Made by a program: the position numbers and the translations under genes. The notes beneath the pieces are model-generated. The model made no database searches, had not been told where the DNA came from, and saw only the letters and a program-made list of their open reading frames with translations. Shown piece after piece: positions 1 through 49,036 of a stretch of 50,759 nucleotides of DNA (position 1 is its first letter; each line of letters starts with the position of its first letter). The stretch comes from Escherichia phage MikeNSara. The stretch is taken from the sequence record OR896827.1; one strand, 5' to 3'.

Positions 1-1569
1 ATGATCATATGGGAAGATTTGACGGCGGCGCAAAAGCGAGCCATTAAAGAAATCAGTGAGCATTCATTCGAAAAGATGATCAGAATCTGGTTCCAATTAT
101 TGCAGGGGCAAAAATTCCAGAGCAACTGGCATTTTAGCTTATTGTGCAGTGAGGTAGAGAAGATCATCAATGGAGAGTCGCAGAATGTGATTTTCAACAT
201 TACGCCAGGTAGCGGTAAGACTGAGATTTTCTCGATCCACATGTCACCCTACGCGTCATTGAAAAGCCGAAAGGTGAGAAATCTTAACCTTTCGTTTAGT
301 GATGGCCTTGTCCAGCAAAACAGCAACCGGATAAAGGAGATTATTGGTTCTCCTGAGTGGCAAGAGCTATGGCCTGGTAAACTGGCAAAGGCGAGCGCTA
401 AAGATCTGATAGTCACCGAAGGCGGCAAGGTTAAATTGCAAGTTAACTCACGTTCTATTGGCGGCCAGGTAACAGGTTTGCGTGGCGGCTATATGGACGA
501 TGGTTTTACTGGTATGCTGGTTCTTGACGATCCAGACAAGCCGGATGATATGCTTTCTAAGGTCAAGCGTGAGGCGATCCACATGCGGTTAAAAAACACA
601 GTGCGATCGCGTCGAATGAAAGACACCACGCCGATTGTTATGGTGCAACAGCGACTACACGTTAATGATTCCACCTGGTTCATGCTTAATGGCGGGATGG
701 GTGGCATTGAGTTTAAAGTTGTGAGCATTCCGGCGCTGGTTACGAAAGAATACCGCGAAACGCTTCCTGATTGGTTGAAGCCTGAATTTGATCGTGATGT
801 GCTGTCAAGTAAGCCAGTGATGATAGATGGCGTCGCTCATTATTCATTTTGGCCTGCGAAGGAAAGCGCGGAGGAGTTGCTTGCATTGCGCAATGCAGAT
901 CCTTACACGTTCGCCAGCCAATACCAACAGCAACCAATCGCGCTTGGCGGTAACGTGTTTAAAACAGAGTGGTTCCAGTATTACGGCAGCGGAGAAAAGT
1001 GCGCACTACCAAAACCGGATCGCTTTGAATACACATTTATTACTGGAGATACCGCGCAGAAGGCCGGAGAGCTTAACGACTATTCGGTTTTTTGTTATTG
1101 GGGGATGTATAAGAATCGCGTTTACTTCATTGATGGCATTCGCGGAAAGTGGGAAGCGCCGGATCTTGAATTAAATTTTATTGCCTTCGTTAACCAGTGC
1201 TGGAAGCGCAATAAGGAGTGTGGCAGCTTGCGACGTATCCACATTGAGGATAAGGCCAGCGGCACGGGTTTGATTCAGGGGGCCAAAAAGAAGATCCCGA
1301 TTGATATAAATCCCGTTCAGCGAAGCAATGACAAGGTGACGCGAGCAATGGACGCCGCGCCAGTAATGAGGGCAGGACGTGTGGCGCTGCCAGAAAATCA
1401 CCCAATGCTGCCTGAGATACTGGCAGAGGTTGCAGCATTCACTTTTGATGATTCTCATCCCCATGATGATATTGTCGATAATATAGTTGATGCTGTTAAC
1501 GTCGAAATGAATTTGGCAGATGATCCGGTAGCAAGGATGAAAAAGCTGGCAGGTCTACGCAATAAATAG
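1..1569 (+). CDS. terminase large subunit
   Basis: 522-aa ORF with P-loop (TPGSGKT) near N-terminus and nuclease-like C-terminal half; sits immediately after the terminase-small-like ORF when the window is circularised; ATG at position 1 may be the true start. Confidence 0.8.
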   Translation: MIIWEDLTAAQKRAIKEISEHSFEKMIRIWFQLLQGQKFQSNWHFSLLCSEVEKIINGESQNVIFNITPGSGKTEIFSIHMSPYASLKSRKVRNLNLSFSDGLVQQNSNRIKEIIGSPEWQELWPGKLAKASAKDLIVTEGGKVKLQVNSRSIGGQVTGLRGGYMDDGFTGMLVLDDPDKPDDMLSKVKREAIHMRLKNTVRSRRMKDTTPIVMVQQRLHVNDSTWFMLNGGMGGIEFKVVSIPALVTKEYRETLPDWLKPEFDRDVLSSKPVMIDGVAHYSFWPAKESAEELLALRNADPYTFASQYQQQPIALGGNVFKTEWFQYYGSGEKCALPKPDRFEYTFITGDTAQKAGELNDYSVFCYWGMYKNRVYFIDGIRGKWEAPDLELNFIAFVNQCWKRNKECGSLRRIHIEDKASGTGLIQGAKKKIPIDINPVQRSNDKVTRAMDAAPVMRAGRVALPENHPMLPEILAEVAAFTFDDSHPHDDIVDNIVDAVNVEMNLADDPVARMKKLAGLRNK

Positions 1570-1585
1570 CACTAATTGCTAAAAA
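1566..1585 (+). repeat. degenerate copy of the 20-bp motif (no canonical spacer/-10)
   Basis: ATAGCACTAATTGCTAAAAA overlapping terminase stop TAG; followed by TATAAT after only 4 nt and then an intrinsic terminator. Confidence 0.5.
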
Positions 1586-1624: not shown

Positions 1625-1639
1625 TATGGAGATTTGACG

Positions 1640-6165: not shown

Positions 6166-6190
6166 CTAATAGCATAAAAAAACATTGCAC

Positions 6191-6209
6191 GTTTAACAAA
6201 AAGTGCTAT
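6191..6209 (-). repeat. 20-bp motif copy in reverse orientation inside late operon
   Basis: GTTTAACAAAAAGTGCTAT on + strand (complement of motif), immediately upstream of terminator 6216..6241; no good -10 at expected position. Confidence 0.5.
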
Positions 6210-9944: not shown

Positions 9945-9964
9945 CTTTTAACAAAAAGTGCTAT
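9945..9964 (-). repeat. 20-bp motif copy in reverse orientation inside late operon
   Basis: CTTTTAACAAAAAGTGCTAT on + strand between major tail terminator and chaperone gene; -10-like TAGATT weak. Confidence 0.5.
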
Positions 9965-20547: not shown

Positions 20548-20590
20548 ACTATACACGATCCGACAAGCGGCGTTTAGCAAAAAGTGCTAC
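20548..20590 (-). promoter_or_regulatory. motif-type promoter cassette (leftward, 19-nt variant) for Cor-like operon
   Basis: GTTTAGCAAAAAGTGCTAC at 20572..20590, 18-bp spacer, -10 TATAGT on minus strand; lipoprotein ATG 20516 downstream. Confidence 0.45.
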
Positions 20591-25484: not shown

Positions 25485-25504
25485 ATAGCACTTTTTGCTA
25501 ATGA
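25485..25504 (+). repeat. 20-bp motif copy (variant) next to tail-fibre start, no canonical -10
   Basis: ATAGCACTTTTTGCTAATGA; expected -10 position reads TTTCAA. Confidence 0.45.
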
Positions 25505-27046: not shown

Positions 27047-27090
27047 ATAGCATTTTTTGTTAAAACAGTTTATTGTAATGAGTCTATTAT
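27047..27090 (+). promoter_or_regulatory. motif-type promoter cassette (20-mer + 18-bp spacer + TATTAT)
   Basis: ATAGCATTTTTTGTTAAAAC followed after 18 bp by TATTAT; helicase ATG 27123 downstream. Confidence 0.55.
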
Positions 27091-29120: not shown

Positions 29121-29539
29121 TGGCTATAACTGATAAAGGCGATTATCTTGAGTTTTACGAAAGGGATCCAACCGACACGAGAAGGGAAGTTAATCACCAG
29201 ATAGATAGTTTTCAGTGGTTGACTTATGCTCATCCTTATTTGCTGGCGTGGCATACGGTAAACGAGAATGAGAAGTCTAAAGCAACGGCGATGATTGATC
29301 AGCAGTCCGGCTTGGTTAAGGGAGTAAGCGATTTCATCATCCTGATTGGTTTAAACGGAAAATACCCCTTTGCAGCGATTGAGATCAAACGAGTGAATAA
29401 ATCAGGCAAGGGGAAAGCATCACCAGTCAGCGATGAACAAAAGGCTTTTTTGCGTCGCGTTCGCAGCTTAGGAGGATTCGCTGCGGTAGCCTACGGATTC
29501 AATCAGTTTAAGTTGGCTATTGAATACATGCTTAAATAG
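29120..29539 (+). CDS. VRR-NUC domain nuclease
   Basis: TAATG overlap with helicase; PD-(D/E)XK core GVSDFIILIG...AIEIK and SDEQKAFL typical of VRR-NUC. Confidence 0.65.
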   Translation: MAITDKGDYLEFYERDPTDTRREVNHQIDSFQWLTYAHPYLLAWHTVNENEKSKATAMIDQQSGLVKGVSDFIILIGLNGKYPFAAIEIKRVNKSGKGKASPVSDEQKAFLRRVRSLGGFAAVAYGFNQFKLAIEYMLK

Positions 29540-29579
29540 CACTTTTTGTTAAAACTGGCGCGATGGATTGCGCCATAAT
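29536..29579 (+). promoter_or_regulatory. motif-type promoter cassette
   Basis: ATAGCACTTTTTGTTAAAAC, 18-bp GC-palindromic spacer, CATAAT; overlaps VRR-NUC stop; Dam ATG 29619 downstream. Confidence 0.55.
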
Positions 29580-30348: not shown

Positions 30349-30606
30349 ATGGAAAAAGAGAGAAGCGTTTATTTAAATGAAACTGGCGAGTGGTTGTTAT
30401 TTCGCGCTATGGTGTGCGATGCACTTGATAAAAACCCTAACGTGAAAAAGATGATTGATTGCGATCCGTGGGAATTTTCAAGCGCATTAGATATGAGCTT
30501 TGAGGAGACAAGAAAACTCCCGCTTGAAAAATGGCACGAACAAATCAGAAATGACATGCAAGAGTTTGTTGATTCGTGGAATTTTCAGCACGGAATGATC
30601 CACTAA
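30349..30606 (+). CDS. hypothetical protein
   Basis: ORF with RBS ACGGAG; stop abuts 20-bp motif. Confidence 0.5.
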   Translation: MEKERSVYLNETGEWLLFRAMVCDALDKNPNVKKMIDCDPWEFSSALDMSFEETRKLPLEKWHEQIRNDMQEFVDSWNFQHGMIH

Positions 30607-30649
30607 TAGCACTTTTTGTTAAAACGCCCGGCCTAGTGTCGGGCATAAT
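30606..30649 (+). promoter_or_regulatory. motif-type promoter cassette
   Basis: ATAGCACTTTTTGTTAAAAC, 18-bp spacer gcccggcctagtgtcggg, CATAAT; the same spacer occurs inverted at 33829..33846. Confidence 0.55.
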
Positions 30650-33822: not shown

Positions 33823-33866
33823 AATATACCCGACACTAGGCCGGGCGTTTTAACAAAAAATGCTAT
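33823..33866 (-). promoter_or_regulatory. motif-type promoter cassette (leftward)
   Basis: 20-mer 33847..33866 (one A/G change), 18-bp spacer identical to that of 30606..30649 cassette, -10 TATATT; gene ATG 33786 downstream. Confidence 0.55.
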
Positions 33867-35984: not shown

Positions 35985-36028
35985 ATTTTAACGGCCCAAT
36001 ACTACCCCGTTTTGTCAAAAAGTGCTAT
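35985..36028 (-). promoter_or_regulatory. motif-type promoter cassette (leftward, variant)
   Basis: GTTTTGTCAAAAAGTGCTAT at 36009..36028, 18-bp spacer, -10 TAAAAT; ATPase gene ATG 35956 downstream. Confidence 0.5.
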
Positions 36029-36658: not shown

Positions 36659-36702
36659 ATTATGCCAGGTTTTTACACCTGGCTTTTAACAAAAAGTGCT
36701 AT
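36659..36702 (-). promoter_or_regulatory. motif-type promoter cassette (leftward)
   Basis: 20-mer 36683..36702, hairpin-forming 18-bp spacer, -10 CATAAT; gene ATG 36629 downstream. Confidence 0.55.
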
Positions 36703-38348: not shown

Positions 38349-38629
38349 TATGCGATCCCAGTTACGTTAAAACTTACAGCCCTTGTTGCGCTAAATACAT
38401 AAGCATCAACAGCGCCGCCAAATACACGAATTTTACCCTGGCCGTACTGCGCATTCATATTTCGCCAAACCGTTCTATTAGAGCAGAATGCGCTACCAGT
38501 CTTAATAAGCGTATCCATCTCTTTTCTTAGATCGCGATAGTCAAGCCAGAATCTAAAGGCGCGCTGTTTAATTCGCGCCGCCTTGATTTTTTCTCTTGCG
38601 CTATTGAAATCATTCTTTTCGTATGCCAT
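38348..38629 (-). CDS. hypothetical protein
   Basis: ATG overlapping upstream stop. Confidence 0.45.
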   Translation of the reverse strand: MAYEKNDFNSAREKIKAARIKQRAFRFWLDYRDLRKEMDTLIKTGSAFCSNRTVWRNMNAQYGQGKIRVFGGAVDAYVFSATRAVSFNVTGIA

Positions 38630-38826
38630 TAAATGATCTCCATGTATGTTTCAAAGCCATTTAACTTGAACAGGCCGTTTTCACATTTGCGCACGTTCCA
38701 AGTTAGCCCTGAGTGGTACGCCTCCATATCATCAAGGTCAATGGTGATTTCAGCACCTTTCTTAAACAAACCTTTTTCGTGAGACTTGTCGCGCTTAACA
38801 ACTTTAACATCAACCTGATTTTCCAT
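38629..38826 (-). CDS. hypothetical protein
   Basis: ~30 nt downstream of motif promoter 38858..38901. Confidence 0.5.
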   Translation of the reverse strand: MENQVDVKVVKRDKSHEKGLFKKGAEITIDLDDMEAYHSGLTWNVRKCENGLFKLNGFETYMEII

Positions 38827-38857
38827 CTTTAAATCCTCGTTTGTTGTCGATGCGCAT

Positions 38858-38901
38858 AATATACCAATCAGAGGCGCATCGGTTTTAACAAAAAGTGCTA
38901 T
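38858..38901 (-). promoter_or_regulatory. motif-type promoter cassette (leftward)
   Basis: 20-mer 38882..38901, 18-bp spacer, -10 TATATT; gene ATG 38826 downstream. Confidence 0.5.
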
Positions 38902-39179
38902 TCAACAACAGATCCAGTTAAAGAGATAAGTGCTCTTGTGATCTTGTGTCTGCGATACTTACGCGCAACAACAGGAAGATTTTCACCGCTTTGATGCCCA
39001 AAAGTGATCGGCAACTCTTCTCCTCCAGACATACCGAACTCAGTGTGTGTTGGTTTGTTCCGCCAACCCTGGATAAAACCGAAACGGTCACGAGTTATGT
39101 ACCTGTAGTTGTTAGGTAGGGGCAATTGTATCCCCTCAAAATCCACTGTGTCGGTGTAGCTGTAAAACTTAGAACTCAT
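38898..39179 (-). CDS. hypothetical protein
   Basis: Start moved from TTG 39194 to ATG 39179 (RBS GGAG); stop is TAG of motif. Confidence 0.45.
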   Translation of the reverse strand: MSSKFYSYTDTVDFEGIQLPLPNNYRYITRDRFGFIQGWRNKPTHTEFGMSGGEELPITFGHQSGENLPVVARKYRRHKITRALISLTGSVVE

Positions 39180-39321
39180 AGTCAACAACTCCAAATTCGT
39201 TTACGATTTGCGCCTTGTAGAAGCCGCCATTTTTCGCCAGGTTGTAACAAGCGGCTACGGTTTCAAATTCGCGCGCTTCCGGCTGGCTGTTTTCGTTTTC
39301 CCAGGTAATCAGAGTAACCAT
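39169..39321 (-). CDS. hypothetical small protein (50 aa)
   Basis: Not in ORF track; RBS GAGGA 8 nt upstream of ATG 39321, ~27 nt downstream of motif promoter 39355..39398. Confidence 0.4.
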   Translation of the reverse strand: MVTLITWENENSQPEAREFETVAACYNLAKNGGFYKAQIVNEFGVVDYEF

Positions 39322-39354
39322 TTTCAAATCCTCGCATTCGTTGTCGATGCGTGT

Positions 39355-39398
39355 AATGTACAGGAATGCGAGGATTGAGTTTTAACAAAAAGTGCTAT
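39355..39398 (-). promoter_or_regulatory. motif-type promoter cassette (leftward)
   Basis: 20-mer 39379..39398, 18-bp spacer, -10 TACATT; small gene ATG 39321 downstream. Confidence 0.55.
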
Positions 39399-40658: not shown

Positions 40659-40702
40659 AATGTACCCGATCAGACGGCCTGAGTTTTAACAAAAAGTGCT
40701 AT
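40659..40702 (-). promoter_or_regulatory. motif-type promoter cassette (leftward)
   Basis: Reverse complement of canonical 20-mer at 40683..40702, 18-bp spacer, -10 TACATT (as read on minus strand); ATG 40624 downstream. Confidence 0.55.
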
Positions 40703-40733
40703 TTGACGGTTAGCGCCAGGATTGTGATCGAAA

Positions 40734-40824
40734 TAATCAAAAGTAATCATTCGTAATCAAATCACGTCAAAATGATGATTGCCTTTGCAAATTTGATGAG
40801 AAAAGTAATCACGTTTAATCATTG
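40734..40824. promoter_or_regulatory. iteron-like cluster of (G)TAATCA repeats
   Basis: At least six copies of TAATCA / AGTAATCA within ~90 bp, just upstream of the leftward motif promoter. Confidence 0.4.
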
Positions 40825-40959
40825 GTTGCAGGGGAGATAGTGAAACCTCCTCCTCTTGCCTCACTTTTCCGCCTGGCTGTCAGTGGTTGTTATGTTCCGT
40901 TCCCGCCTGTTCTTTTGTTGACCTTCCGCAAAATACGATAACAAAAAATAACAAACAAT

Positions 40960-41298
40960 ACCTATATAATACATTGAAAAATAAGGATTATTTATTTATA
41001 TGTATCTATATATTCTCTTTTGTTATCTTGGTTATTGTGGTATTTGGTGGGGGTATATAGTTTTTGTGTATCTGTATGTGTGTATGGGTATGTAGGGGCA
41101 TATATATCTATATGGCACTTTCCGCGAGAAAACTTCGATAACAGGCAATGATAACATTGATTTATAAGGAAAAATAACGCCTATATTGTTATTGTGCCAC
41201 CATATAAAATTGATAAAACACGCGGGAACAAGAAAAAACAGTTGACACATTAAATAGCATTATTGATAATGCCCACACCTAACAACCAGGAGGCAGAA
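40960..41298 (+). repeat. AT-rich control region, paralog B
   Basis: See paralog A; alternating purine-pyrimidine TG/TA tracts and A-tracts upstream of consensus sigma70 promoter. Confidence 0.6.
41242..41270 (+). promoter_or_regulatory. sigma70-type promoter (TTGACA-17-GATAAT) for rightward early operon
   Basis: Consensus -35, 17-bp spacer, GATAAT -10; A-tract upstream; ATG 41299 about 28 nt downstream. Confidence 0.65.
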
Positions 41299-41763
41299 AT
41301 GAGCGAGCAATCATTCACTGACACGCTGCGCCGTGCCGCTATTATGCTGGCTAATGGCGAGGAAGAGACGATCAAGATTCCTGACGCGTATTTGCAGGTC
41401 CACATGTTCGGCAAGAAGTCGGCAAGCAATCCGGCGGCCTACATTCGCCAGATCATGAGTCGAGTGCCAGAAGTCGCCGAGCGGGGGCGCGTATCCGTTA
41501 CCCGTGGCGTTTACGGGCCGGAAGATGAAAACTTCGGTAGCACTTTCTACGAGGTGCGGATTGTTGAAGGCCGTCGCAAGGTTTACAACAAAGAGGCACT
41601 GGAAAGGGCAGTACGCCAGGCTAAGCGCAAGGTTGCAGAGGCGATCATTGATATGTCACCCAACCTGGCAAACTATGCGCCGGAAGAGTACGAAACATTA
41701 TCAAAGGCCGTCGCTGACTTTCACGCGATGATCAAAAAAACTTTCCTGGAGGATGAGCAATGA
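41299..41763 (+). CDS. hypothetical early protein (first gene of rightward early operon)
   Basis: Start moved to ATG 41299 with RBS AGGAGG; ~25 nt downstream of TTGACA-17-GATAAT promoter. Confidence 0.55.
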   Translation: MSEQSFTDTLRRAAIMLANGEEETIKIPDAYLQVHMFGKKSASNPAAYIRQIMSRVPEVAERGRVSVTRGVYGPEDENFGSTFYEVRIVEGRRKVYNKEALERAVRQAKRKVAEAIIDMSPNLANYAPEEYETLSKAVADFHAMIKKTFLEDEQ

Positions 41764-42032
41764 AAAAGGCATTAATCAGTGTTTTGGTGGCAATGGCATT
41801 CCTGACCGGATGTAAAGAAGATGGCGCGCATGTTGGCAATGTGCAGATGGCTAACCCTGGCGATGACTACAACGTAAGGGAGCTATTCACCGCTGACGGA
41901 TGCACTGTTTACCGATTCTATGACGATCGCACTGTTTACTTTACCAACTGCAAGGGCGCGACTAGCTGGGAAGCATCGAAAAGCAATGGCAAAGGCACGA
42001 CAACAGAATATATGACCGTAGAAACAAAATAG
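41760..42032 (+). CDS. putative lipoprotein
   Basis: ATGA overlap; signal peptide with lipobox LTGC (MKKALISVLVAMAFLTGC). Confidence 0.55.
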   Translation: MKKALISVLVAMAFLTGCKEDGAHVGNVQMANPGDDYNVRELFTADGCTVYRFYDDRTVYFTNCKGATSWEASKSNGKGTTTEYMTVETK

Positions 42033-42072
42033 CACTTTTTGTTAAAACGCCAGGCGCAAAGCCTGGCATAAT
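42029..42072 (+). promoter_or_regulatory. motif-type promoter cassette
   Basis: Canonical 20-mer overlapping stop of 41760..42032, palindromic 18-bp spacer, CATAAT. Confidence 0.55.
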
Positions 42073-42104
42073 AGCCTCATCGAAACGAGATTGAGGAAAC
42101 AAAA

Positions 42105-42290
42105 ATGGCACGTCGCATCACCAAAGACCTTAAAGTCCTGAACAAAGAAAACGTAGTTAAAATCCTGGTTATCTGGGGCTACAACGAAGAAACAGCAAAG
42201 CAGAAGGTAGAGGCAGGTTATGATCTGGCTGTAAAAGCAATGCCAAACGACGACGCCAAAGGCATTGCAAACTATGTAGCGTTCTTTTAA
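42105..42290 (+). CDS. hypothetical protein
   Basis: RBS GAGGAA; downstream of motif promoter 42029..42072. Confidence 0.5.
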   Translation: MARRITKDLKVLNKENVVKILVIWGYNEETAKQKVEAGYDLAVKAMPNDDAKGIANYVAFF

Positions 42291-42305
42291 TTAGCAGGTG
42301 AATAA

Positions 42306-42491
42306 ATGAAAACGAAATTAGCCCATAAATCAGAAATCAAGATCGGCGATACTGTGATTCACAACGGCGAGCTTAGAACGGTTGGCAAAGAGTCAATAAG
42401 CCACGATGAATTTATGGGGATCTTGTTGTTCGGTGACTCTTATCGTCTTGGTTACAAGATGGTTGAGCTTGTGGAAGAGGTAAAATTCTAA
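42306..42491 (+). CDS. hypothetical protein
   Basis: RBS AGGTGA. Confidence 0.5.
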   Translation: MKTKLAHKSEIKIGDTVIHNGELRTVGKESISHDEFMGILLFGDSYRLGYKMVELVEEVKF

Positions 42492-42535
42492 ATAGCACTT
42501 TTTGTTAAAACTCGAAAACGATAACCAGGCATAAT
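42492..42535 (+). promoter_or_regulatory. motif-type promoter cassette
   Basis: Canonical 20-mer, 18-bp spacer, CATAAT; gene 42590 downstream. Confidence 0.55.
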
Positions 42536-42589
42536 AAATCACATAGGGCGGCACGGCGTCGCCCACAAAACCAATCAGGAGAAAGCACC

Positions 42590-43480
42590 ATGTTAAAACT
42601 TACTGACATTAAATTCCCGATCACCTTCGAATCTCGCGGCGTTGGTCATTTCATGTTTACAGACGAGAAGACATGCACTAAGTTTAACGAATACGGAAGT
42701 CCAAACGCTTCAACAATGGAGATTGAACACTTCATTGAAGCGCACAATAAACACTACAACTCACTCAGAGACTACGGTTACGCAATGCCAGGCTACACCT
42801 GTTTCCACTACAAGCCATATAAAGGCCAGGTGTTGCCAGTGCGCTCACCGGAACGCGCAGAGATTCCGATGGTCAATATGAAAACCTGCGACTACAAAAA
42901 GCTGTGGTGCTTAAGTGTGGACAATATCAAGTATCCGATCACGTTCCACACGACTGGTAAGTCAACGATTCGCTACACATCACGCGACAATGGCGTTTAT
43001 AGCGATGGTACGAAATCAGAGTTGAAAGTTGATTTCTTTGTCAACGGTCACAACAAATTCAATCCGCACAACGAAGAGGATAAAGTGTACTACGTGGAAG
43101 ACATTACAAAACACTTGTTTGGAGAAACTCCATTCGGCGGCGGAAAGACGTCAATTCAAAAAATCATTGGCGAGGAGATCCACAAAGCGGCTGCCGAAAT
43201 GAAAGCGCCTGGAGGCTGGCGTATTGATAAGAGCGCCTTTGCAAATCAAGAAATCGTAACGCAGGGCGCGATTGAAGATATGCCAGTTGCAGCCACGCTA
43301 AAAGGAGTCCGGCTTGATGATGGTGTGTGGTTTGAATTAACGGCTACACCAAAGACGATCGAGATTCATGATGATGTTGTTATCCTCCTGCTTCACTACG
43401 GCGGCACTAAAAATCGGACTGTTGCAGGTGAGATCAGCATCAAGCGCGGAACGATGGTTAAGTGGAAGGTAAAGATTTGA
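42590..43480 (+). CDS. hypothetical protein with internal tandem duplication
   Basis: RBS AGGAG; two ~55-aa modules share IK(F/Y)PITF ... F(I/V).(A/G)HNK pattern. Confidence 0.55.
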   Translation: MLKLTDIKFPITFESRGVGHFMFTDEKTCTKFNEYGSPNASTMEIEHFIEAHNKHYNSLRDYGYAMPGYTCFHYKPYKGQVLPVRSPERAEIPMVNMKTCDYKKLWCLSVDNIKYPITFHTTGKSTIRYTSRDNGVYSDGTKSELKVDFFVNGHNKFNPHNEEDKVYYVEDITKHLFGETPFGGGKTSIQKIIGEEIHKAAAEMKAPGGWRIDKSAFANQEIVTQGAIEDMPVAATLKGVRLDDGVWFELTATPKTIEIHDDVVILLLHYGGTKNRTVAGEISIKRGTMVKWKVKI

Positions 43481-43556
43481 GTTTGTTCACTGCGGCGCAC
43501 GTCGCCGCATGGATCGGATTGTTTGCCTACCTGTTTAGATTTTATTGAGGTGAGAG

Positions 43557-43709
43557 ATGGCTACCTGGATTTTGCTGATTCTTATGATTGATGGCGGCGT
43601 TGACCATATCGAAATGAATAGCCAGCAATCTTGCATTGAGGCACGAGAGCAGATCAAGAACAACAACAGGTTTTATGCGTACACTCACACGCTATGTATT
43701 AAGAAATAG
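43557..43709 (+). CDS. hypothetical small membrane protein (50 aa)
   Basis: Not in ORF track; RBS GAGGTGAG; hydrophobic N-terminus; stop is TAG of motif 43706..43725. Confidence 0.35.
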   Translation: MATWILLILMIDGGVDHIEMNSQQSCIEAREQIKNNNRFYAYTHTLCIKK

Positions 43710-43748
43710 CACTTTTTGTTAAAACTCAAATGTGGGGCCAGGTATAAT
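43706..43748 (+). promoter_or_regulatory. motif-type promoter cassette
   Basis: Canonical 20-mer, 17-bp spacer, TATAAT; gene 43779 downstream. Confidence 0.55.
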
Positions 43749-43778
43749 GGCCTCACTTTCAACGAAGGAGATCAAACG

Positions 43779-43997
43779 ATGTACATTAAAAAGAAGATGA
43801 AATGCGTTTCCGTTAACTATGCTTGCTCTGGCATGTTCAAGCCTGGCGAAATCTATACGGCGCAAAAACTGAAATCATCAACCGGATCTTTTTACGTGAG
43901 CAATAGTAAGGGGCATCGCATGTTCCTGAACGGCGGCGAAGGCACTAAGGTTATGGCACACGCTATGGTAATGGCTGAATTTGAGGAAGTGAAATAA
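43779..43997 (+). CDS. hypothetical protein
   Basis: Start moved to ATG 43779 with RBS AAGGAG, ~30 nt after motif promoter. Confidence 0.5.
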   Translation: MYIKKKMKCVSVNYACSGMFKPGEIYTAQKLKSSTGSFYVSNSKGHRMFLNGGEGTKVMAHAMVMAEFEEVK

Positions 43998-43999
43998 TC

Positions 44000-44209
44000 A
44001 TGGACCAGAACAAAACAGCAAAATATAAATTCACTGACGACTACGGAGACACTATCGACGTTTATCAGCGTGGGAATCAGATCTTTATAGATGGCACTTT
44101 CGAATATGGCCGGATGCCAGACTTTCGGGGAATACTTTCGGCAGATAGCGCGCGACGCATGGCGAACGTGTTAAATAAACTGGCGGCAAAGATTGAGGCG
44201 ATGCAATGA
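44000..44209 (+). CDS. hypothetical protein
   Basis: ORF immediately after upstream stop. Confidence 0.45.
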   Translation: MDQNKTAKYKFTDDYGDTIDVYQRGNQIFIDGTFEYGRMPDFRGILSADSARRMANVLNKLAAKIEAMQ

Positions 44210-44742
44210 AAAAATACACTTTCGAACTGTGGGGCAAGAAGTACGAATTAATGACCAGTAAGCCGATTGTTATCGTTGACCTGGACGGCACACTATCGGA
44301 CGGATCGCATCGTTTGCATTTGCTGCCAACTGAAAACTTGCACCTTACGGAATCGTGGCGCGAGTTTAACAGGGTCGCCGCCGGAGATTCACCTATTAAA
44401 AGCACTATCGCGGTTATTAACGGTTTATGGGTGTCGGGATTTGCCATCGTCATCTTGACCGGACGCAGCGACGAGGTTCGCTATGAAACCTGCAAATGGT
44501 TGAATGAGAACGGCGTGAAGTTTGACGAAATCATCATGCGCCGCCAGGAGGACAACCGAAAGGATACGGTTATTAAAGAAGAAGCCTTGCGCGCTATTGG
44601 CCTGGACAACATTGTTTGCGCCTTTGACGATTCGCCTAACGTGGTTAAGCACTTCCGCAGCTTGGGGGTCACAACCTATCAGGTCACGGAATACGACAAG
44701 CCACACGCTCACATACAATCTCACGGCGTGGAGAAATTATAA
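44206..44742 (+). CDS. HAD-superfamily phosphatase (T4 Pnk phosphatase-domain-like)
   Basis: HAD motif I VIVDLDGTL, motif II ILTGR, C-terminal FDDSP; overall pattern resembles the 3'-phosphatase domain of T4 polynucleotide kinase (from memory). Confidence 0.6.
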   Translation: MKKYTFELWGKKYELMTSKPIVIVDLDGTLSDGSHRLHLLPTENLHLTESWREFNRVAAGDSPIKSTIAVINGLWVSGFAIVILTGRSDEVRYETCKWLNENGVKFDEIIMRRQEDNRKDTVIKEEALRAIGLDNIVCAFDDSPNVVKHFRSLGVTTYQVTEYDKPHAHIQSHGVEKL

Positions 44743-44934
44743 ATGGCTGACTTTATGCATCAAATGATTGTTGTATTTAAGGGCAGTGAAGATGAAGAGG
44801 TTCGCGAATGCTTCACCATTGAGAAATCATACAGCGCATCTTTAACCAGTTTTGGCAACATATCTATGATTGATGATAATGGCGATCCGTGGATTTTTGA
44901 AGATGATACGGATTGCTTTGAGATTAAAGAATAG
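44743..44934 (+). CDS. hypothetical acidic protein
   Basis: RBS GGAG; strongly acidic 63-aa product; stop is TAG of motif. Confidence 0.45.
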   Translation: MADFMHQMIVVFKGSEDEEVRECFTIEKSYSASLTSFGNISMIDDNGDPWIFEDDTDCFEIKE

Positions 44935-44974
44935 CACTTTTTGCAAAAACAGATTATCGGGCTTGCGGTATAGT
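44931..44974 (+). promoter_or_regulatory. motif-type promoter cassette
   Basis: ATAGCACTTTTTGCAAAAAC, 18-bp spacer, TATAGT; gene 45006 downstream. Confidence 0.55.
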
Positions 44975-45005
44975 AAGCCCATCGACAACGAAAGAGGAAA
45001 CGGCG

Positions 45006-45305
45006 ATGTTAGTACGCAATGCGATGTATAAAATCAAATCTGATGAGCGTGTCCACCTGTTTCATGTGAACGAGCACGGCGACCTTTCGATCGCGATGTA
45101 CCGTAACGACCGAGGCGGTTGCGAGGAATCAATAGGCGGTAAAGTGCATCCAATGTTTTTCATGTTCCGCCACAAGGCCGATCAATACAGCCATCACAAC
45201 CACTGGATCGGTGACTTGCTGCAATATGGGAAATTGGTTGCGTCGCACGTTGTAGATCCTGGCAAGTTAACCAGCCGCCAGCTTCGCAAAATGGCGCGCA
45301 AATAG
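45006..45305 (+). CDS. hypothetical protein
   Basis: RBS GAGGAA; downstream of motif promoter 44931..44974. Confidence 0.5.
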   Translation: MLVRNAMYKIKSDERVHLFHVNEHGDLSIAMYRNDRGGCEESIGGKVHPMFFMFRHKADQYSHHNHWIGDLLQYGKLVASHVVDPGKLTSRQLRKMARK

Positions 45306-45345
45306 CACTTTTTGTTAAAATCAACTTTACGGCCTGCGGTATAGT
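45302..45345 (+). promoter_or_regulatory. motif-type promoter cassette
   Basis: ATAGCACTTTTTGTTAAAAT, 18-bp spacer, TATAGT; gene 45377 downstream. Confidence 0.55.
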
Positions 45346-45376
45346 AGGCCCATCAACAACAAACGAGGATTAAATC

Positions 45377-45640
45377 ATGGCTAACAAGATCGAGTTTTTT
45401 AAAGCGGTAGACATTATTGATGGCGCGCCTAGCTTCTTCGCTATCCATTCTATTGACGGCAAGGATATTGGGTACAACGTTATCCGTCGAGATGGAATAT
45501 CAAAACTTAGTGACCTGGTAGGCCATATTGTGTCAATCGGGAAATGCGCATGGCCCGATTCGCCACGAGAGCCGCGCCGCCGCGACATGATTAATCCTGA
45601 ATTGCTTTACACGCTGGTAGTAGAGGGAGAAAATAAATGA
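45377..45640 (+). CDS. hypothetical protein
   Basis: RBS GAGGA; downstream of motif promoter 45302..45345. Confidence 0.5.
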   Translation: MANKIEFFKAVDIIDGAPSFFAIHSIDGKDIGYNVIRRDGISKLSDLVGHIVSIGKCAWPDSPREPRRRDMINPELLYTLVVEGENK

Positions 45641-45822
45641 TTTGGTTACTTGCTTTTTTGGTTGTTTTTCTTTACATTTCAGGCTTGTTTACGTTCCGCG
45701 CGTTGGTGAAATATTCTGACGCGACAGACAAAGACGATAAAATCGTTCTCGCTTTCTGGTTTGTTTGGGTGTGGTTAGCAATTTACGAGATCATCAGAGA
45801 CAAACAGAAATTTGAGTGGTGA
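45637..45822 (+). CDS. hypothetical membrane protein
   Basis: ATGA overlap; two hydrophobic helices. Confidence 0.45.
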   Translation: MIWLLAFLVVFLYISGLFTFRALVKYSDATDKDDKIVLAFWFVWVWLAIYEIIRDKQKFEW

Positions 45823-45878
45823 TTCTTGCTATGGCGCATTCATGCAGTGCGCCATGTTGAGAAAACCTAAAGGGGGAA

Positions 45879-46031
45879 ATGATGCGTAACTTTGAAAAAA
45901 TCATTACCAAAAAGAAGCGTCGCGGGTACGATGAGCATGTGGAGCTTGTGAAAAAGCAACGCAAGAAGCGCAACGAAGACAAGAAGCGCGGGAAAAAATT
46001 TAATGCGATTTTTCGCTATGGAGGAAACTAA
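45879..46031 (+). CDS. hypothetical small basic protein (50 aa)
   Basis: Not in ORF track; RBS AAGGGGGA; K/R-rich. Confidence 0.35.
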   Translation: MMRNFEKIITKKKRRGYDEHVELVKKQRKKRNEDKKRGKKFNAIFRYGGN

Positions 46032-46223
46032 ATGCAATTGCCACCATTTAACGAAAAAAGCGAAGAGATTGCCAAAACTGCATGTCACCTTCGAGAGCTT
46101 GCCGACATGATAGAGCGCGGTCAGGTTATGATTGTCAATATGACTATCAAAAGCGAGAATAGAAATTTCAAGGTTTTAAGCGAGACAACAGAAATTACCG
46201 TCTTGAAAGCAAGGGGAGAGTAA
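46032..46223 (+). CDS. hypothetical protein
   Basis: TAAATG junction with previous small ORF. Confidence 0.45.
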   Translation: MQLPPFNEKSEEIAKTACHLRELADMIERGQVMIVNMTIKSENRNFKVLSETTEITVLKARGE

Positions 46224-46225
46224 TC

Positions 46226-46816
46226 ATGAAACGAGACATTATCATCCTTAATGGGCCTCCAGGTTGCGGGAAGGACACTATTGCAGCTTACCTAACAGGC
46301 CATCGTTACCCAGCGGTTAAGGCATCATTCAAGCAACCTATGTTCGACATTGCTTTTTCTATGCTTGGCCCGACTCGATACGATGAATTTATGGACCTGT
46401 ACAACGACCGAGAGCAAAAAGAAAAGCCTCAAGTTATCTTAGGCGGCAAGTCACCTCGACAATTCATGATCTGGATTAGCGAGGATGTAATGAAGCCAGT
46501 TTTTGGAGATCACTATTTCGGGCGTCGAATGGTTGAAGAGATTCACGAGATGTACCGAGATTTGGAGGTTGTGATCAGTGATGGCGGATTCCCCGAAGAA
46601 ATCAAGCCGCTCGTTAAGGCGGGGCATGAGGTGCATATTTGCCGATTGCATCGAGACGGCTTCACGTTTGCTGGCGATTCGAGAGACTACATTGACCTGA
46701 GCGGTTATCACTATCGAATCCATCACTATGATTTCCACTTGCAGGACGGTAAGCCGGAACTGGCTGTAAGCGAGATCGTCAATGCAGTCAAATGGAAGCA
46801 CACACAGATTAAATAG
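46226..46816 (+). CDS. P-loop nucleotide kinase (dNMP-kinase-like)
   Basis: Walker A GPPGCGKDT at N-terminus; overall pattern reminiscent of T4 gp1 dNMP kinase (from memory); RBS GGGGAGAG; stop is TAG of motif. Confidence 0.6.
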   Translation: MKRDIIILNGPPGCGKDTIAAYLTGHRYPAVKASFKQPMFDIAFSMLGPTRYDEFMDLYNDREQKEKPQVILGGKSPRQFMIWISEDVMKPVFGDHYFGRRMVEEIHEMYRDLEVVISDGGFPEEIKPLVKAGHEVHICRLHRDGFTFAGDSRDYIDLSGYHYRIHHYDFHLQDGKPELAVSEIVNAVKWKHTQIK

Positions 46817-46856
46817 CACGAATTGCTAAACGCGGGGTTATCGGCCCCGCTATAAT
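46813..46856 (+). promoter_or_regulatory. motif-type promoter cassette (variant 20-mer)
   Basis: ATAGCACGAATTGCTAAACG, 18-bp palindromic spacer, TATAAT; gene 46887 downstream. Confidence 0.5.
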
Positions 46857-46886
46857 GCTCGCATCAACAATCAAGAGGAAATCACA

Positions 46887-47267
46887 ATGGTTAACATCCG
46901 AAAAATCCGCGTCGGCACTAAATTCTTAGTTACTTATGCAATTCCAGAGAGCGGAATGAAGAAGGGCCAGATTGTTAAGGTTGATAGCAAAAGGTTCGGG
47001 ATCCCTGGTATCAATGGCTATCTAATCAATAGAGATCTTGGATTCGACGGATTCGCTATCCGTGCGCTTGAGGGTATTGTTGCCACTCTTAAACGAATCA
47101 CTAATCATCGCGGCTGCCCAATCAAGACGATTAAAGCGCCAATAAATTACGGCAAACTGGATAATCGTCGAATCCGCCGCCTGGCGCGTAACGCGTTAAA
47201 ATTCCGTGGCGTAGGCGATGATTTCTACTATGGATACAAGAGGATTGCGCGCAATGCTGGCAAATAA
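46887..47267 (+). CDS. hypothetical basic protein
   Basis: RBS AGAGGA; downstream of motif promoter 46813..46856. Confidence 0.5.
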   Translation: MVNIRKIRVGTKFLVTYAIPESGMKKGQIVKVDSKRFGIPGINGYLINRDLGFDGFAIRALEGIVATLKRITNHRGCPIKTIKAPINYGKLDNRRIRRLARNALKFRGVGDDFYYGYKRIARNAGK

Positions 47268-47366
47268 CAATAACGCAACGAATCCTAAGCCACCTTTTGA
47301 TTTTCATTCCGCAATGATTGCGGTATTATCAATGCTACTTTTTCTTTATAGCATGAGGGCGCTACT

Positions 47367-47615
47367 ATGGTTTTTAACGCATTGAAACGACTGTTTAAGC
47401 CGGAATACCGGATCGTATTTTGCCGCGACTGTTCTACTTATCATGTGCAGCGACGCAGCTTAGGCGGCAATTGGCACTATGTTACAGACGACTTTTTCGG
47501 CATCATTGCCACTGAATTTAAGTATTACAGTGATGCTTATATGTACGTGAAGAAGCGCCACCGCTTACGCAAGTGTCGTTTTTCCGTGCTGATTCACGTT
47601 AATGATTGTTACTGA
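47367..47615 (+). CDS. hypothetical protein (Cys-containing, possible zinc-binding)
   Basis: RBS GAGGG; CRDC...HRLRKC pattern. Confidence 0.45.
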   Translation: MVFNALKRLFKPEYRIVFCRDCSTYHVQRRSLGGNWHYVTDDFFGIIATEFKYYSDAYMYVKKRHRLRKCRFSVLIHVNDCY

Positions 47616-47622
47616 GGTGAAA

Positions 47623-47805: not shown

Positions 47806-47816
47806 GGGGATCTGAA

Positions 47817-48107
47817 ATGGCAAACAAAACTTACCGCAAACTACTGGTTAACGCTTTTGAAAACATCGCGCAGTCTAACAAGTGGAACGACTCTAAACAC
47901 TCGCCAGTCACAATGAAGCGCGTCGGATTCAAAAATGCTCGTTCATGGGCGCGAGCTTTCGCAGCTTGCTATATGCCGGATGGTGGACTAGGAGCGATGG
48001 ACGATTTTTTGATCAACATGATAGAGGAAGCTGCGCGAGAGGATCGACCGCTGACACAGCGAGATTTTGATGACTTCGCGCGCGATGAGCTTTACTATCT
48101 GAGCTAA
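47817..48107 (+). CDS. hypothetical protein
   Basis: RBS AAGGGGA; stop abuts motif 48107..48126. Confidence 0.5.
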   Translation: MANKTYRKLLVNAFENIAQSNKWNDSKHSPVTMKRVGFKNARSWARAFAACYMPDGGLGAMDDFLINMIEEAAREDRPLTQRDFDDFARDELYYLS

Positions 48108-48150
48108 TAGCACTTTTTGTTAAAACTTCCGCAAGGGCATTTGATAAAGT
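48107..48150 (+). promoter_or_regulatory. motif-type promoter cassette
   Basis: Canonical 20-mer, 18-bp spacer, TAAAGT; gene 48183 downstream. Confidence 0.5.
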
Positions 48151-48182
48151 GCCCTTATTGAAGCGAAACAGAGGAAAGCGCA

Positions 48183-48966: not shown

Positions 48967-49036
48967 TTAAAAACTCATAGCCGTTAGAGCGCCTCAATCG
49001 CATTCTAACGAGCTATTTTTCTGGTAAGGTGATTTA

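What the first reader, a model, noticed from the sequence alone, without database searches (positions are those of the whole stretch)
42029..42048. The promoter motif doubles as the stop codon of the upstream gene
In most copies the TAG inside ATAGCAC, or a TAA one base before it, is the stop codon of the preceding gene (ends at 1569, 29539, 42032, 43709, 44934, 45305, 46816 on +; 36025, 36699, 38898, 33863 on -). Coding sequence ends exactly where the next promoter begins, so early genes sit in a chain of stop-promoter-leader-gene modules with almost no free intergenic DNA. Each gene's C-terminus is therefore constrained by the regulatory element.
Basis: seen in the sequence. Interest (0 to 1): 0.6.

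Follow-up and report, generated by a model that had tools for sequence, protein, structure and literature searches.

The report
Stop codon inside repeated phage promoter
In this T1-like coliphage, a known 20-base repeat that looks like the upstream half of a promoter has a fixed TAG at its first bases, which most upstream genes use as their stop codon, and the same repeat is where gene cassettes are gained and lost; T4-like phages have a similar, already described arrangement.

Summary
The window is a Warwickvirus (Drexlerviridae, T1-like). It carries 21 copies of ATAGCACTTTTTGTTAAAAC-like sequence, all in the 9% non-coding DNA. Fourteen of the 15 copies with a same-strand upstream gene hold that gene's stop at offset -3 to +1: 10 use the motif TAG, 2 TAATAG and 2 TAA|ATAG. 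One listed end (33863) is doubtful. All 10 TAG stops among 86 genes are motif TAGs.

The pattern holds in T1's own 2004 annotation (10 of 10) and in about 220 dereplicated copies from other phages (TAG frame 88 against 22 and 19). The TAG is intrinsic: 93% conserved with or without an incoming gene.

The motif was described in phage TLS in 2024 as a 21-nt repeat of unknown function. Here it sits at predicted -50 to -31 of an extended -10 promoter. A hairpin follows that only read-through RNA can form, then a conserved leader and ribosome-binding site.

Relatives differ from the window by cassette deletions whose junctions lie inside the motif.

This matches the promoter-stem-loop (PeSL) cassettes of T4-like phages. 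Identical modules occur in T4-like phage KP15.

Promoter activity remains unproven. The C-terminal constraint is one codon, giving Lys or Glu.

The parts
42029..42048 (+). Focus copy of the 20-nt repeat ATAGCACTTTTTGTTAAAAC, at predicted -50 to -31 of the module's promoter
41760..42032 (+). Upstream gene (90 aa, DUF4884-like). Its stop is the motif TAG at 42030-42032.
   Evidence: annotated in EC167 and atuna
42049..42067 (+). Hairpin GCCAGGC-gcaaa-GCCTGGC between the motif and the -10. It lies upstream of the predicted start, so it exists only in read-through RNA.
   Evidence: -15.7 kcal/mol
42067..42072 (+). -10-like hexamer CATAAT preceded by TGg (extended -10). Predicted start is the A at 42079, in a conserved CA.
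   Evidence: inferred, not measured
42079..42104 (+). Conserved leader CATCGAAACGA with ribosome-binding site GAGG at 42093-42096
42105..42290 (+). Downstream gene (61 aa, DUF7421). Its ATG is 76 nt after the first base of the motif.
1566..1585 (+). Motif copy. Its TAG (1567-1569) ends the large terminase gene. Geometry is atypical: TATAAT at +24, then a strong terminator.
6190..6209 (-). Motif copy pointing antisense in the late operon, upstream of the major capsid gene. No upstream or downstream same-strand gene.
   Evidence: same place in T1
9945..9964 (-). Motif copy pointing antisense, after the major tail gene, with TGaTAGATT as an extended -10
   Evidence: same place in T1
20571..20590 (-). 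Variant copy GTAGCAC... heading the leftward operon 20522-19352. No upstream gene.
25485..25504 (+). Variant copy in a divergent intergenic region. No upstream same-strand gene, yet TAAATAG is kept.
27047..27066 (+). Copy (ATAGCAT...) driving the helicase gene, divergent from the HTH regulator gene 26559-27035
29536..29555 (+). Copy whose TAG ends gene 29120-29539. T1 gene ST21 (38540-38956), which occupies the same position after the helicase gene, also ends on a motif TAG.
30606..30625 (+). Copy whose first A is the last base of the TAA of gene 30349-30606 (TAATAG)
33847..33866 (-). Copy (ATAGCAT...) driving ORF 33786-33562. The upstream stop-in-motif is doubtful: the likelier 31-aa ORF ends 10 nt before the motif.
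36009..36028 (-). Copy whose TAG ends gene 36246-36025
36683..36702 (-). Copy whose TAG ends the methylase-like gene 37409-36699
38882..38901 (-). Copy whose TAG ends gene 39179-38898 (annotated in phage aalborv). It is the right-hand joint of a 497-bp cassette.
39379..39398 (-). Copy abutted by the TAA of gene 39662-39399. It is the left-hand joint of the 497-bp cassette. The upstream arm CCTCGCATTC pairs with the ribosome-binding site region.
40683..40702 (-). First leftward copy at the edge of the central non-coding region. No upstream gene.
42492..42511 (+). Copy abutted by the TAA of gene 42306-42491. It is the left joint of a 1214-bp cassette absent from phage atuna.
43706..43725 (+). 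Copy whose TAG ends gene 43557-43709. It is the right joint of the 1214-bp cassette.
44931..44950 (+). Copy whose TAG ends gene 44743-44934. It is the left joint of a 371-bp cassette absent from SECphi27.
45302..45321 (+). Copy whose TAG ends gene 45006-45305. It is the right joint of the 371-bp cassette.
46813..46832 (+). GAA-type copy ATAGCACGAATTGCTAAACG whose TAG ends gene 46226-46816
48107..48126 (+). Copy whose first A is the last base of the TAA of gene 47817-48107 (TAATAG)

Best explanation
The 20-21-nt repeat is the conserved upstream half of a repeated promoter-plus-hairpin module. The module type is the one known in T4-like phages as PeSL (promoter-early stem-loop).

Each module runs in this order, counted from the first A of the motif:
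- the motif, at predicted -50 to -31
- a G+C-rich hairpin that starts right after the motif
- an extended -10 hexamer at +38 to +43, with G at +36
- a predicted start at a conserved CA at +49/+50
- a conserved leader (CATCGAAACGA), a ribosome-binding site, and an ATG about 75 nt from the motif start.

The TAG at motif positions 2-4 is an intrinsic, invariant part of the element. Because the whole gap is regulatory, upstream genes run right up to it. They end on that TAG, on a TAA abutting or overlapping it, or more rarely on the TAA inside GTTAAAA.

I infer an indel ratchet as the source of the excess in the TAG frame. A gene that drifts into the TAG frame needs no stop of its own and gains no tail. 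A gene that drifts out of it gains a 5-residue or longer tail.

The hairpin's 5' arm lies upstream of the predicted start, so only transcripts arriving from upstream can fold it. I infer that it attenuates, ends or translationally silences read-through. Stopping the ribosome at the TAG, about 16 nt before the hairpin, leaves the hairpin free to form.

The identical 20-nt patches also act as homology for recombination. Cassettes bounded by two copies are deleted, inserted or replaced without damage to the upstream gene, because its stop lies in the shared patch.

What is shown: the anatomy, the statistics, the conservation and the recombinant junctions. What is inferred: promoter activity, the role of the hairpin, and the ratchet.
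For: Known element:
- The window is a Warwickvirus.
- The motif equals the published TLS repeat aaATAGCACnnnTTGnTAAAA, which has 18 intergenic copies about 76 nt upstream of start codons.

Stop positions:
- 14 of 15 in the window.
- 10 of 10 in T1's independent annotation.
- In 219 dereplicated copies from IMG/VR contigs: TAG 73, TAA abutting 20, TAATAG 12, TAA at +14 13. Frames are 88:22:19, chi-square p = 4e-16.
- All TAG stops in the window are motif TAGs.

TAG is intrinsic. It is kept in 68 of 73 copies with no incoming ORF and in 99 of 106 with one.

Promoter-like geometry in 223 dereplicated modules: TATAAT at +38 to +43, G at +36 in 181 of 223, CA at +49/+50, then leader and ribosome-binding site. 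Gaps are mostly 68-79 nt.

Structure:
- Mean z is -2.1 against shuffles.
- 202 of 223 modules have at least 5 bp whose 5' arm lies upstream of the predicted start.
- The stem differs in sequence between the window and atuna but pairing is kept.
- T1's annotators called two of these hairpins terminators.
- The hairpin starts later when the stop is at +14: median 25 against 20, p = 0.005.

Recombination:
- 15 of 59 alignment breakpoints fall in modules (3.8% expected, p = 4e-9). Seven fall at the motif (p = 7e-6).
- Junctions for the 1214-, 371- and 497-bp cassettes lie within the motif.

Comparison with PeSLs. Their published anatomy starts with the stop codon of the upstream gene in the AT-rich region, with the stem-loop between -35 and -10 or over the -10, and they recombine to shuffle ORFs.

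The same module occurs in T4-like phage KP15, annotated as putative promoter plus terminator.
Against: - No experimental start-site, termination or binding data exist for any T1-like phage in the searched literature.
- The -35 region is poor. TTGYTA lies 22 bp from the -10, and TTAAAA or TAAAAC at 18-19 bp matches only weakly. A generic sigma-70 scan finds only one of the modules.
- The invariant GCAC and TTG suggest a sequence-specific protein that has not been identified.
- Most hairpins lack a U-run, so they are not canonical intrinsic terminators.
- Three or four copies (1566, 6209-, 9964-, 25485) have atypical geometry or no downstream gene.
- The ratchet model for the frame bias is untested.
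- Breakpoints and dereplicated clusters are not fully independent events.
Confidence: 0.68

Rival explanations
1. The motif is mainly the binding site of a phage-encoded regulator. That regulator could be an activator replacing the -35 contact, or a repressor in the manner of a stoperator. The stop overlap would then be incidental packing. The conserved Cro/YdaS-like HTH protein (26559-27035, - strand) is the obvious candidate.
For: - Invariant TAGCAC and TTGnTAAAA, with a weak -35, look like a protein site.
- The TLS authors proposed stoperators or enhancer sites.
- The HTH protein is present in 849 phage records; every sampled record was a 44-52-kb Drexlerviridae-size genome.
- The homologous region of TLS carries a canonical sigma-70 promoter (P57). 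In the window, a TTTAAA-17-TATAAT match lies upstream of the regulator gene.
- A canonical promoter at 41242-41270 precedes the first rightward module, which would fit a cascade.
Against: - The motif is not palindromic, as most Cro-type sites are.
- It keeps a fixed distance to a -10 with the extended -10 G, so RNA polymerase is involved in any case.
- Identical modules work in front of T4-like genes in KP15-type phages, and no T4-like genome appeared among the sampled tblastn hits for this regulator.
- The idea does not by itself explain the stop positions or the recombinant junctions.
Confidence: 0.18
2. The element works mainly in RNA. The stop codon, the U-rich tract and the hairpin would together form a signal for ribosome release and transcript 3'-end formation or processing for the upstream gene, so the stop is a functional part of the element.
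For: - The hairpin begins right after the motif in most modules.
- Stops lie upstream of the U tract in about 90% of cases.
- The hairpin shifts downstream when the stop is at +14.
- T1's annotators marked these hairpins as terminators.
Against: - Six of 21 copies have no upstream co-directional gene to terminate, yet they keep the full motif.
- The TAG is as well conserved without an incoming ORF as with one.
- Orientation and spacing follow the downstream -10 and start codon.
- No Rfam family matches.
Confidence: 0.1
3. The 5' end of the 'motif' is only a shared stop-codon context (A-rich, TAA or TAG) kept by translation. It is not part of a regulatory element, and the apparent overlap comes from where the motif boundary was drawn.
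For: - A-rich sequence and TAA commonly end genes.
- Positions -1 and -2 are more A-rich when a gene ends there: 93% against 70% A at -1.
Against: - ATAG is kept in 93% of copies with no incoming ORF in any frame, and in all six window copies without an upstream gene.
- TAG is otherwise never used as a stop in this genome: 0 of 72 genes.
Confidence: 0.04

Closest known systems
21-nt direct repeat of phage TLS and other T1-like phages (aaATAGCACnnnTTGnTAAAA; PMC11447400, 2024)
   Same: - Same sequence, including the TTT, GAA and AAA sub-types.
- Same copy number (18-21 per genome).
- Same orientation with the downstream gene, about 76 nt upstream of start codons.
- Same phage subfamily (Tempevirinae).
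   Different: - The paper calls the repeats intergenic and leaves their function as an open question, offering stoperator, enhancer or UP-element ideas.
- In the text I read, it does not report that the TAG is the upstream gene's stop, the fixed -10 and hairpin that follow, or recombination at the repeat.
PeSLs (promoter-early stem-loops) of T4-like phages RB49, phi1, PST and nt-1 (PMC2839356, PMC4122927)
   Same: The layout has the same order:
[quoted passage not shown]
- promoter
- stem-loop between -35 and -10 or over the -10
- ribosome-binding site and ATG.

PeSLs also flank small genes of unknown function, and recombination between copies deletes, inserts or replaces ORFs (compared).
   Different: - PeSL promoters match the sigma-70 consensus. 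Here the -35 is non-consensus, and a 20-nt near-invariant element places the stop at one fixed nucleotide.
- Promoter, terminator and mini-circle activity were shown experimentally for PeSLs. Nothing has been shown here.
- The phage family differs (siphovirus, about 50 kb).
'Putative middle promoters' annotated in T4-like Klebsiella phage KP15 (NC_014036)
   Same: One KP15 module is the same from end to end: TAATAGCACTTTTTGTTAAAAC, a GGGGTA...TACCCC hairpin round TATAGT, a CATCGAAAC leader, ribosome-binding site and ATG. The upstream gene's TAA overlaps the motif. Neighbouring KP15 promoter features overlap terminator features.
   Different: - There are only 2-4 copies per T4-like genome, against 5-18 in Drexlerviridae.
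- The gene it drives has only T4-like homologues.
- The label 'middle promoter' is a MEME prediction.
UP elements and mycobacteriophage L5 stoperators (the two analogies offered by the TLS authors)
   Same: - Like a UP element, the motif lies upstream of the promoter core (about -50 to -38) and has an A/T tract at -43 to -39.
- Like stoperators, it is asymmetric, has many copies and is co-oriented with transcription.
   Different: - UP elements have no invariant GCAC and do not extend over the -35 (my own knowledge of the consensus).
- Stoperators lie inside transcription units of temperate phages and are bound by the repressor. This phage is virulent, and its copies keep a fixed distance to a -10.

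Membership tests
T1-like (Drexlerviridae) 21-nt direct repeat | Consensus aaATAGCACnnnTTGnTAAAA | tested here: met
   There are 21 copies. The matrix from 223 dereplicated copies shows the same invariant positions.
T1-like (Drexlerviridae) 21-nt direct repeat | About 18-21 intergenic copies per genome, co-oriented with the downstream gene and about 76 nt from its start codon | tested here: met
   All 21 copies are non-coding. The ATG lies 68-98 nt from the motif start in 17 copies. Three copies have no downstream gene, and one has atypical geometry.
T1-like (Drexlerviridae) 21-nt direct repeat | Host genome is a T1-like phage | tested here: met
   The window is 94-98% identical to Warwickvirus genomes.
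PeSL composite promoter-terminator cassette | [quoted passage not shown] | tested here: met
   14 of 15 in the window and 10 of 10 in T1. The feature is stated in the PeSL figure legend.
PeSL composite promoter-terminator cassette | Sigma-70 consensus -35 and -10 boxes | tested here: inconclusive
   The -10 is clear, with G at -14. The -35 is weak: TTAAAA or TAAAAC at 18-19 bp, and TTGYTA at 22 bp.
PeSL composite promoter-terminator cassette | Stable stem-loop between -35 and -10, or overlapping the -10 | tested here: met
   65 modules have it before the -10 and 87 around it, out of 223. Mean z is -2.1. 14 of the 21 window copies reach -10 kcal/mol or lower.
PeSL composite promoter-terminator cassette | Ribosome-binding site and start codon at the 3' end of the cassette | tested here: met
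PeSL composite promoter-terminator cassette | Recombination between copies produces ORF insertions, deletions and replacements between close relatives | tested here: met
   Three exact junctions lie in the motif. Breakpoints are enriched there.
PeSL composite promoter-terminator cassette | Demonstrated promoter and terminator activity, and mini-circle formation | not testable with these tools
   This needs reporter assays and inverse PCR.
PeSL composite promoter-terminator cassette | Located in the hyperplastic regions of a T4-like genome | tested here: not met
   The window is a 50-kb T1-like siphovirus. Identical modules do occur in T4-like KP15.
Sigma-54 promoter | GG at -24 and GC at -12, with exactly 10 bases between those two G's (TGGCAC-N5-TTGCW) | tested here: not met
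   Read from the sequence: the motif is TAGCAC-N3-TTG(C/T), so it has AG in place of GG and the spacing is 2 nt short. The consensus is from my own knowledge.
T4 MotA-dependent middle promoter | MotA box (a/t)(a/t)(a/t)TGCTT(t/c)A centred at -30, with MotA and AsiA encoded by the phage | not tested
   KP15's record uses the label 'middle promoter'. Here TTG(C/T)TAAAA lies at -40 to -32, which is upstream of the MotA-box position. The window's proteins were not all screened for MotA or AsiA.
L5-type stoperator | Asymmetric repressor sites inside transcription units of a temperate phage | tested here: inconclusive
   Asymmetry and co-orientation are met. A fixed distance to a -10 is not expected of stoperators. 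Repressor binding cannot be tested here.

The most novel reading that the evidence does not exclude
The repeat is a cross-family, selected 'joint' for scarless gene-cassette exchange. It would combine a shared promoter-insulator module with a built-in stop: TAG in one frame, TAA of GTTAAAA in a second, often TAA just upstream in the third. Drexlerviridae and some T4-like phages would both use it, so that any gene dropped in front of it is correctly terminated and any gene behind it is expressed. The in-motif stop would then be maintained for evolvability and for ribosome-hairpin spacing, not merely captured passively.
Probability: 0.25. Interest if true: 0.6.

Novelty: new member of a known kind. 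Interest (0 to 1): 0.4.

Why it matters
- The authors of the TLS paper listed the function of this 21-base repeat among the open questions for T1-like phages. The anatomy found here gives a concrete, testable answer: promoter half, read-through-specific hairpin, built-in stop, recombination joint.
- It extends the PeSL idea from T4-like myoviruses to a large siphovirus family. The motif is found in about 1,100 phage records.
- It helps annotation. Gene ends and unannotated small genes can be placed from the motif, and strand conflicts between records can be resolved.
- It helps engineering. The motif copies mark natural, scarless insertion and deletion points in therapeutic T1-like phages.

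Tried and rejected
- **Canonical sigma-70 promoter with TTGYTA as the -35:** rejected, because the spacer is 22 bp. The generic scan finds only one module.
- **Sigma-54 promoter:** rejected on spacing and on AG in place of GG.
- **TAG conserved because it is a stop:** rejected.
- **KP15 module as a gene cassette acquired from a T1-like phage:** rejected. The gene it drives has only T4-like homologues.
- **HTH regulator as an obligatory partner:** weakened, because it was not found in the T4-like phages that carry the module. It is not excluded for T1-like phages.
- **Immediate-early proteins 41299-41763 and 41760-42032 as DNA-binding candidates:** only DUF7174 and DUF4884 hits.
- **Rfam and tRNA scans:** nothing.
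- **Literature searches for start-site or transcriptome data on T1-like phages:** nothing usable.
- **Lateral transfer of the 38903-39318 cassette from phage aalborv:** not shown. The flanks are 90-95% identical and the cassette 97%.
- **First breakpoint attempt on IMG/VR fragments:** too few overlaps to use.
- **My automatic gene caller:** it produced spurious antisense ORFs, so I replaced it with a curated list checked against the EC167 and atuna annotations.
Full report
**What the window is.** The early-region query (41000-49000) is 94-98% identical to Warwickvirus phages such as EC167, vB_Eco_Sip, atuna and SECphi27 (Drexlerviridae, Tempevirinae), which are relatives of coliphage T1. It starts inside the large terminase gene and ends in the small terminase gene.

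**Checking the observation.**
- The focus copy ATAGCACTTTTTGTTAAAAC lies at 42029-42048. The TAG at 42030-42032 closes ORF 41760-42032.
- The 7-mer ATAGCAC occurs 21 times against 5.6 expected. The 16-mer core with up to 3 mismatches occurs 21 times against 1.5 expected. No shuffle reached either count.
- I count 21 full copies. All lie in the 9% of the window that is non-coding, apart from 1-4 nt of stop-codon overlap. Three bare 7-mers inside genes lack the rest of the motif.
- Fifteen copies have a co-directional gene upstream. Ten of those genes end on the motif TAG. Two end on a TAA that shares the motif's first A (TAATAG; 30606, 48107). Two end on a TAA directly abutting it (42491, 39399).
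That ORF overlaps an annotated gene and is not annotated in relatives. A 31-aa ORF with a good ribosome-binding site ends on its own TAA 10 nt before the motif.
- The other gene ends agree with the independent annotations of EC167, atuna and aalborv.
- In a curated 86-gene model, every TAG stop (10) is a motif TAG. The other 72 genes use TAA (44) or TGA (28) (Fisher p = 3e-10).
- Gaps that contain a motif are mostly 68-79 nt, so there is no free DNA between stop and motif. Other co-directional gaps range up to 162 nt.

**Does it hold elsewhere?**
- In T1 itself, a different subfamily annotated in 2004, all ten motif copies with an upstream co-directional CDS show the arrangement. ST76, ST72, ST69, ST62 and ST21 end on the TAG. 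ST65 and ST4 overlap by one base. ST16 and ST6 abut. ST66 reads in to the TAA of GCTAAAA at +14.
- A scan of IMG/VR for the exact 19-mer gave 120 stretches, almost all from contigs of about 50 kb.
- After dereplicating 506 copies on their upstream 45 nt (219 clusters at 60% identity), the stop offsets are: TAG 73, TAA abutting 20, TAATAG 12, TAA at +14 13, and no ORF of at least 50 aa 73. Frames are 88:22:19 (chi-square p = 4e-16). Clusters may still include distant orthologues, so the p-value is indicative.
- The codon before the TAG is AAA (46) or GAA (20) in 66 of 73 clusters. The 'constraint on the C-terminus' is therefore one residue, Lys or Glu.

**Is the TAG kept because it is a stop?** No. 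I anchored on the rest of the motif and asked what occupies positions +1 to +3. TAG is there in 68 of 73 copies that have no incoming ORF in any frame, and in 99 of 106 copies that do. The six window copies without an upstream gene also keep (A/G)TAG. The TAG belongs to the element, and genes borrow it.

**What the element is.** The motif is already published. The 2024 TLS paper reports a 21-nt direct repeat aaATAGCACnnnTTGnTAAAA, with 18 intergenic copies about 76 nt upstream of start codons. It is also said to occur in T1, Rtp and Rogue1. The function is unknown and is listed among the open questions. It is the only paper in the library that shows the motif in a phage.

A position matrix from 223 dereplicated modules shows what follows the motif:
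- a variable 17-18 nt stretch
- G at +36 in 181 of 223 modules
- TATAAT at +38 to +43
- a conserved CA at +49/+50, seven bases after the hexamer and so the expected start
- a conserved leader CATCGAAACGA
- a ribosome-binding site and the ATG.

On this numbering the motif spans -50 to -31. TTGYTA is 22 bp from the -10, too far to be a -35. TTAAAA or TAAAAC at 18-19 bp is a weak one. So the module looks like an extended -10 promoter with a highly specific upstream element. This is inference from sequence. No start-site data were found.

**The hairpin.**
- The 60 nt after the motif fold better than shuffles: mean z is -2.1, and 63% of modules are below -1.5.
- In 202 of 223 modules there is a helix of at least 5 bp whose 5' arm lies upstream of the predicted start. 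Sixty-five sit between the motif and the -10, 87 enclose the -10, and 50 reach the ribosome-binding site region. Only RNA arriving from upstream can form these structures.
- In the 39398 module the read-through RNA folds at -21.9 kcal/mol and buries the ribosome-binding site. The promoter-initiated RNA folds at -2.3 kcal/mol.
- The window and atuna have different stem sequences at the same site but keep the pairing.
- T1's annotators marked two of these hairpins as rho-independent terminators. Most lack a U-run, so their action is not established.
- When the upstream gene stops at +14, the hairpin starts later: median +25 against +20, p = 0.005, n = 12 against 93. This suggests that the stop and the hairpin are kept apart.

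**The motif as a recombination joint.** I aligned the window to four relatives.
- Fifteen of 59 internal breakpoints fall inside modules (3.8% expected, p = 4e-9). Seven fall at the motif itself (1.2% expected, p = 7e-6). These are about eight distinct events.
- Three junctions are exact:
  - atuna lacks the 1214 bp between the copies at 42492 and 43706.
  - SECphi27 lacks the 371 bp between 44931 and 45302, with the crossover inside the first 13 nt of the motif.
  - brachmannus lacks the 497 bp between 39398 and 38901.
- In atuna and SECphi27 the last slot holds other genes instead.
- The upstream gene keeps its stop in every case, because the stop lies in the shared patch.

**Comparison with what is known.** The architecture matches the PeSLs of T4-like phages. 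By their published description, PeSLs start with the stop codon of the upstream gene in an AT-rich region. A sigma-70-like promoter follows, with a stem-loop most often between -35 and -10 or over the -10, then the ribosome-binding site and ATG. They recombine to shuffle ORFs, and their promoter and terminator activities were shown experimentally. The differences here are the non-consensus -35, the near-invariant 20-mer that fixes the stop at one nucleotide, the phage family, and the absence of experiments.

Unexpectedly, an identical module lies in T4-like Klebsiella phage KP15. It reads TAATAGCACTTTTTGTTAAAAC, then a hairpin round TATAGT, then CATCGAAAC. The record annotates a putative middle promoter there, and neighbouring KP15 promoter features overlap terminator features. 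It stands in front of a gene that has only T4-like homologues. A 30-nt BLAST finds the motif in 1,104 phage records, with 5-18 places per Drexlerviridae genome and 2-4 per T4-like genome. The conserved HTH regulator of T1-like phages did not appear in any T4-like genome among the sampled hits. This argues, weakly, that host polymerase can read the module without it.

**Why the TAG frame dominates.** This is inference only.
- The element closes two frames by itself: TAG at +1 and TAA at +14.
- A gene in the TAG frame needs no stop of its own and gains no tail.
- An indel that moves a gene out of that frame adds a 5-residue tail (for example STFC) or a longer run into the promoter.
- An indel that moves a gene into that frame costs nothing.
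- Over time the TAG frame should therefore collect genes.
- Keeping ribosomes off the hairpin may add selection.
- An actively selected 'universal stop' for cassette exchange is not excluded.

**Verdict.** The motif is known, and the arrangement is a new member of the PeSL kind rather than something new in kind. It offers a testable answer to a question that specialists have posed.

Noticed in passing
L127 3005-3100 and 3345-3450 (- strand) = KP15 NC_014036 about 10004-10099 and 10344-10449; L020 about 10084: The complete T1-type module (motif, hairpin round the -10, CATCGAAAC leader) occurs in the T4-like Klebsiella phage KP15. It is annotated there as a putative middle promoter, and neighbouring KP15 promoter features overlap terminator features. 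A second KP15 module has a motif one T shorter. The driven gene has only T4-like homologues.
   Followed up: partly
window 6190-6209 (-) and 9945-9964 (-): Two motif copies point antisense inside the rightward structural operon, one before the major capsid gene and one after the major tail gene. Neither has a downstream ORF. T1 has copies at the same two places (15086-, 18850-). The 9964 copy has an extended -10 (TGaTAGATT). They may be antisense promoters. The TLS paper's statement that all repeats follow the direction of transcription does not hold for them.
   Followed up: partly
window 39310-39398 (-): CCTCGCATTC, upstream of the -10, pairs with GAATGCGAGG covering the ribosome-binding site (-21.9 kcal/mol). 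RNA starting at the predicted start cannot form this pairing (-2.3 kcal/mol). About 50 of 223 modules show such pairing across the start site.
   Followed up: partly
window 38840-38902 compared with L126 5898-5960: At the same module, the window and atuna have different hairpin sequences (GATGCGC/GCGCATC against TATGCGGTA/TACCGCATA) but keep the pairing. In atuna the motif's TAG is AAG, and the upstream gene carries its own TAA abutting the motif.
   Followed up: partly
window 40703-41298: This is a 600-nt non-coding region between the divergent early arms. It holds repeated GTAATCA/TAATCA units (40735-40830), long AT-rich TATATA-type stretches, and the best canonical sigma-70 match in the early region (TTGACA-17-GATAAT, 41242-41270), just before gene 41299-41763. 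It may be the immediate-early control region or an origin.
   Followed up: no
window 44206-44934: The polynucleotide kinase ORF (44206-44742, 178 aa) and a separate 63-aa ORF (44743-44934) are annotated in EC167 as one 241-aa protein that reads into the motif and stops at the +14 TAA. In that region EC167 has 182 nt where the window has 569 nt.
   Followed up: partly
window 33547-33786: Relatives disagree on the strand. EC167 annotates a + strand gene (equivalent to 33547-33771). atuna annotates a - strand gene (equivalent to 33562-33786). The motif at 33866 (-) with an ATG 80 nt downstream favours the - strand gene.
   Followed up: partly
window 33877-33971 (-): A 31-aa hydrophobic ORF (MLYLRYFIQICALLAPLNMFYAMMMVYYWLR) with a GAGGA ribosome-binding site follows gene 33984-34379 directly. 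It is not annotated in EC167 or atuna.
   Followed up: no
L002 (T1) 46085-46624 (-): The T1 HNH endonuclease gene ST8 reads straight through a motif copy at 46158 and the whole module, up to the start of ST9. This looks like a homing-endonuclease gene whose 3' end overprints a module.
   Followed up: no
window 1566-1640: The copy after the large terminase gene has a different layout. TATAAT lies 24 nt from the motif start, and a strong terminator hairpin with a T-run follows before the portal gene. T1 has no motif at this position.
   Followed up: no
window, whole: TAG is never used as a stop outside the motif (0 of 72 genes). At a TAG share of 7.5%, which is my own estimate for the host, the chance of that is about 0.004.
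   Followed up: partly
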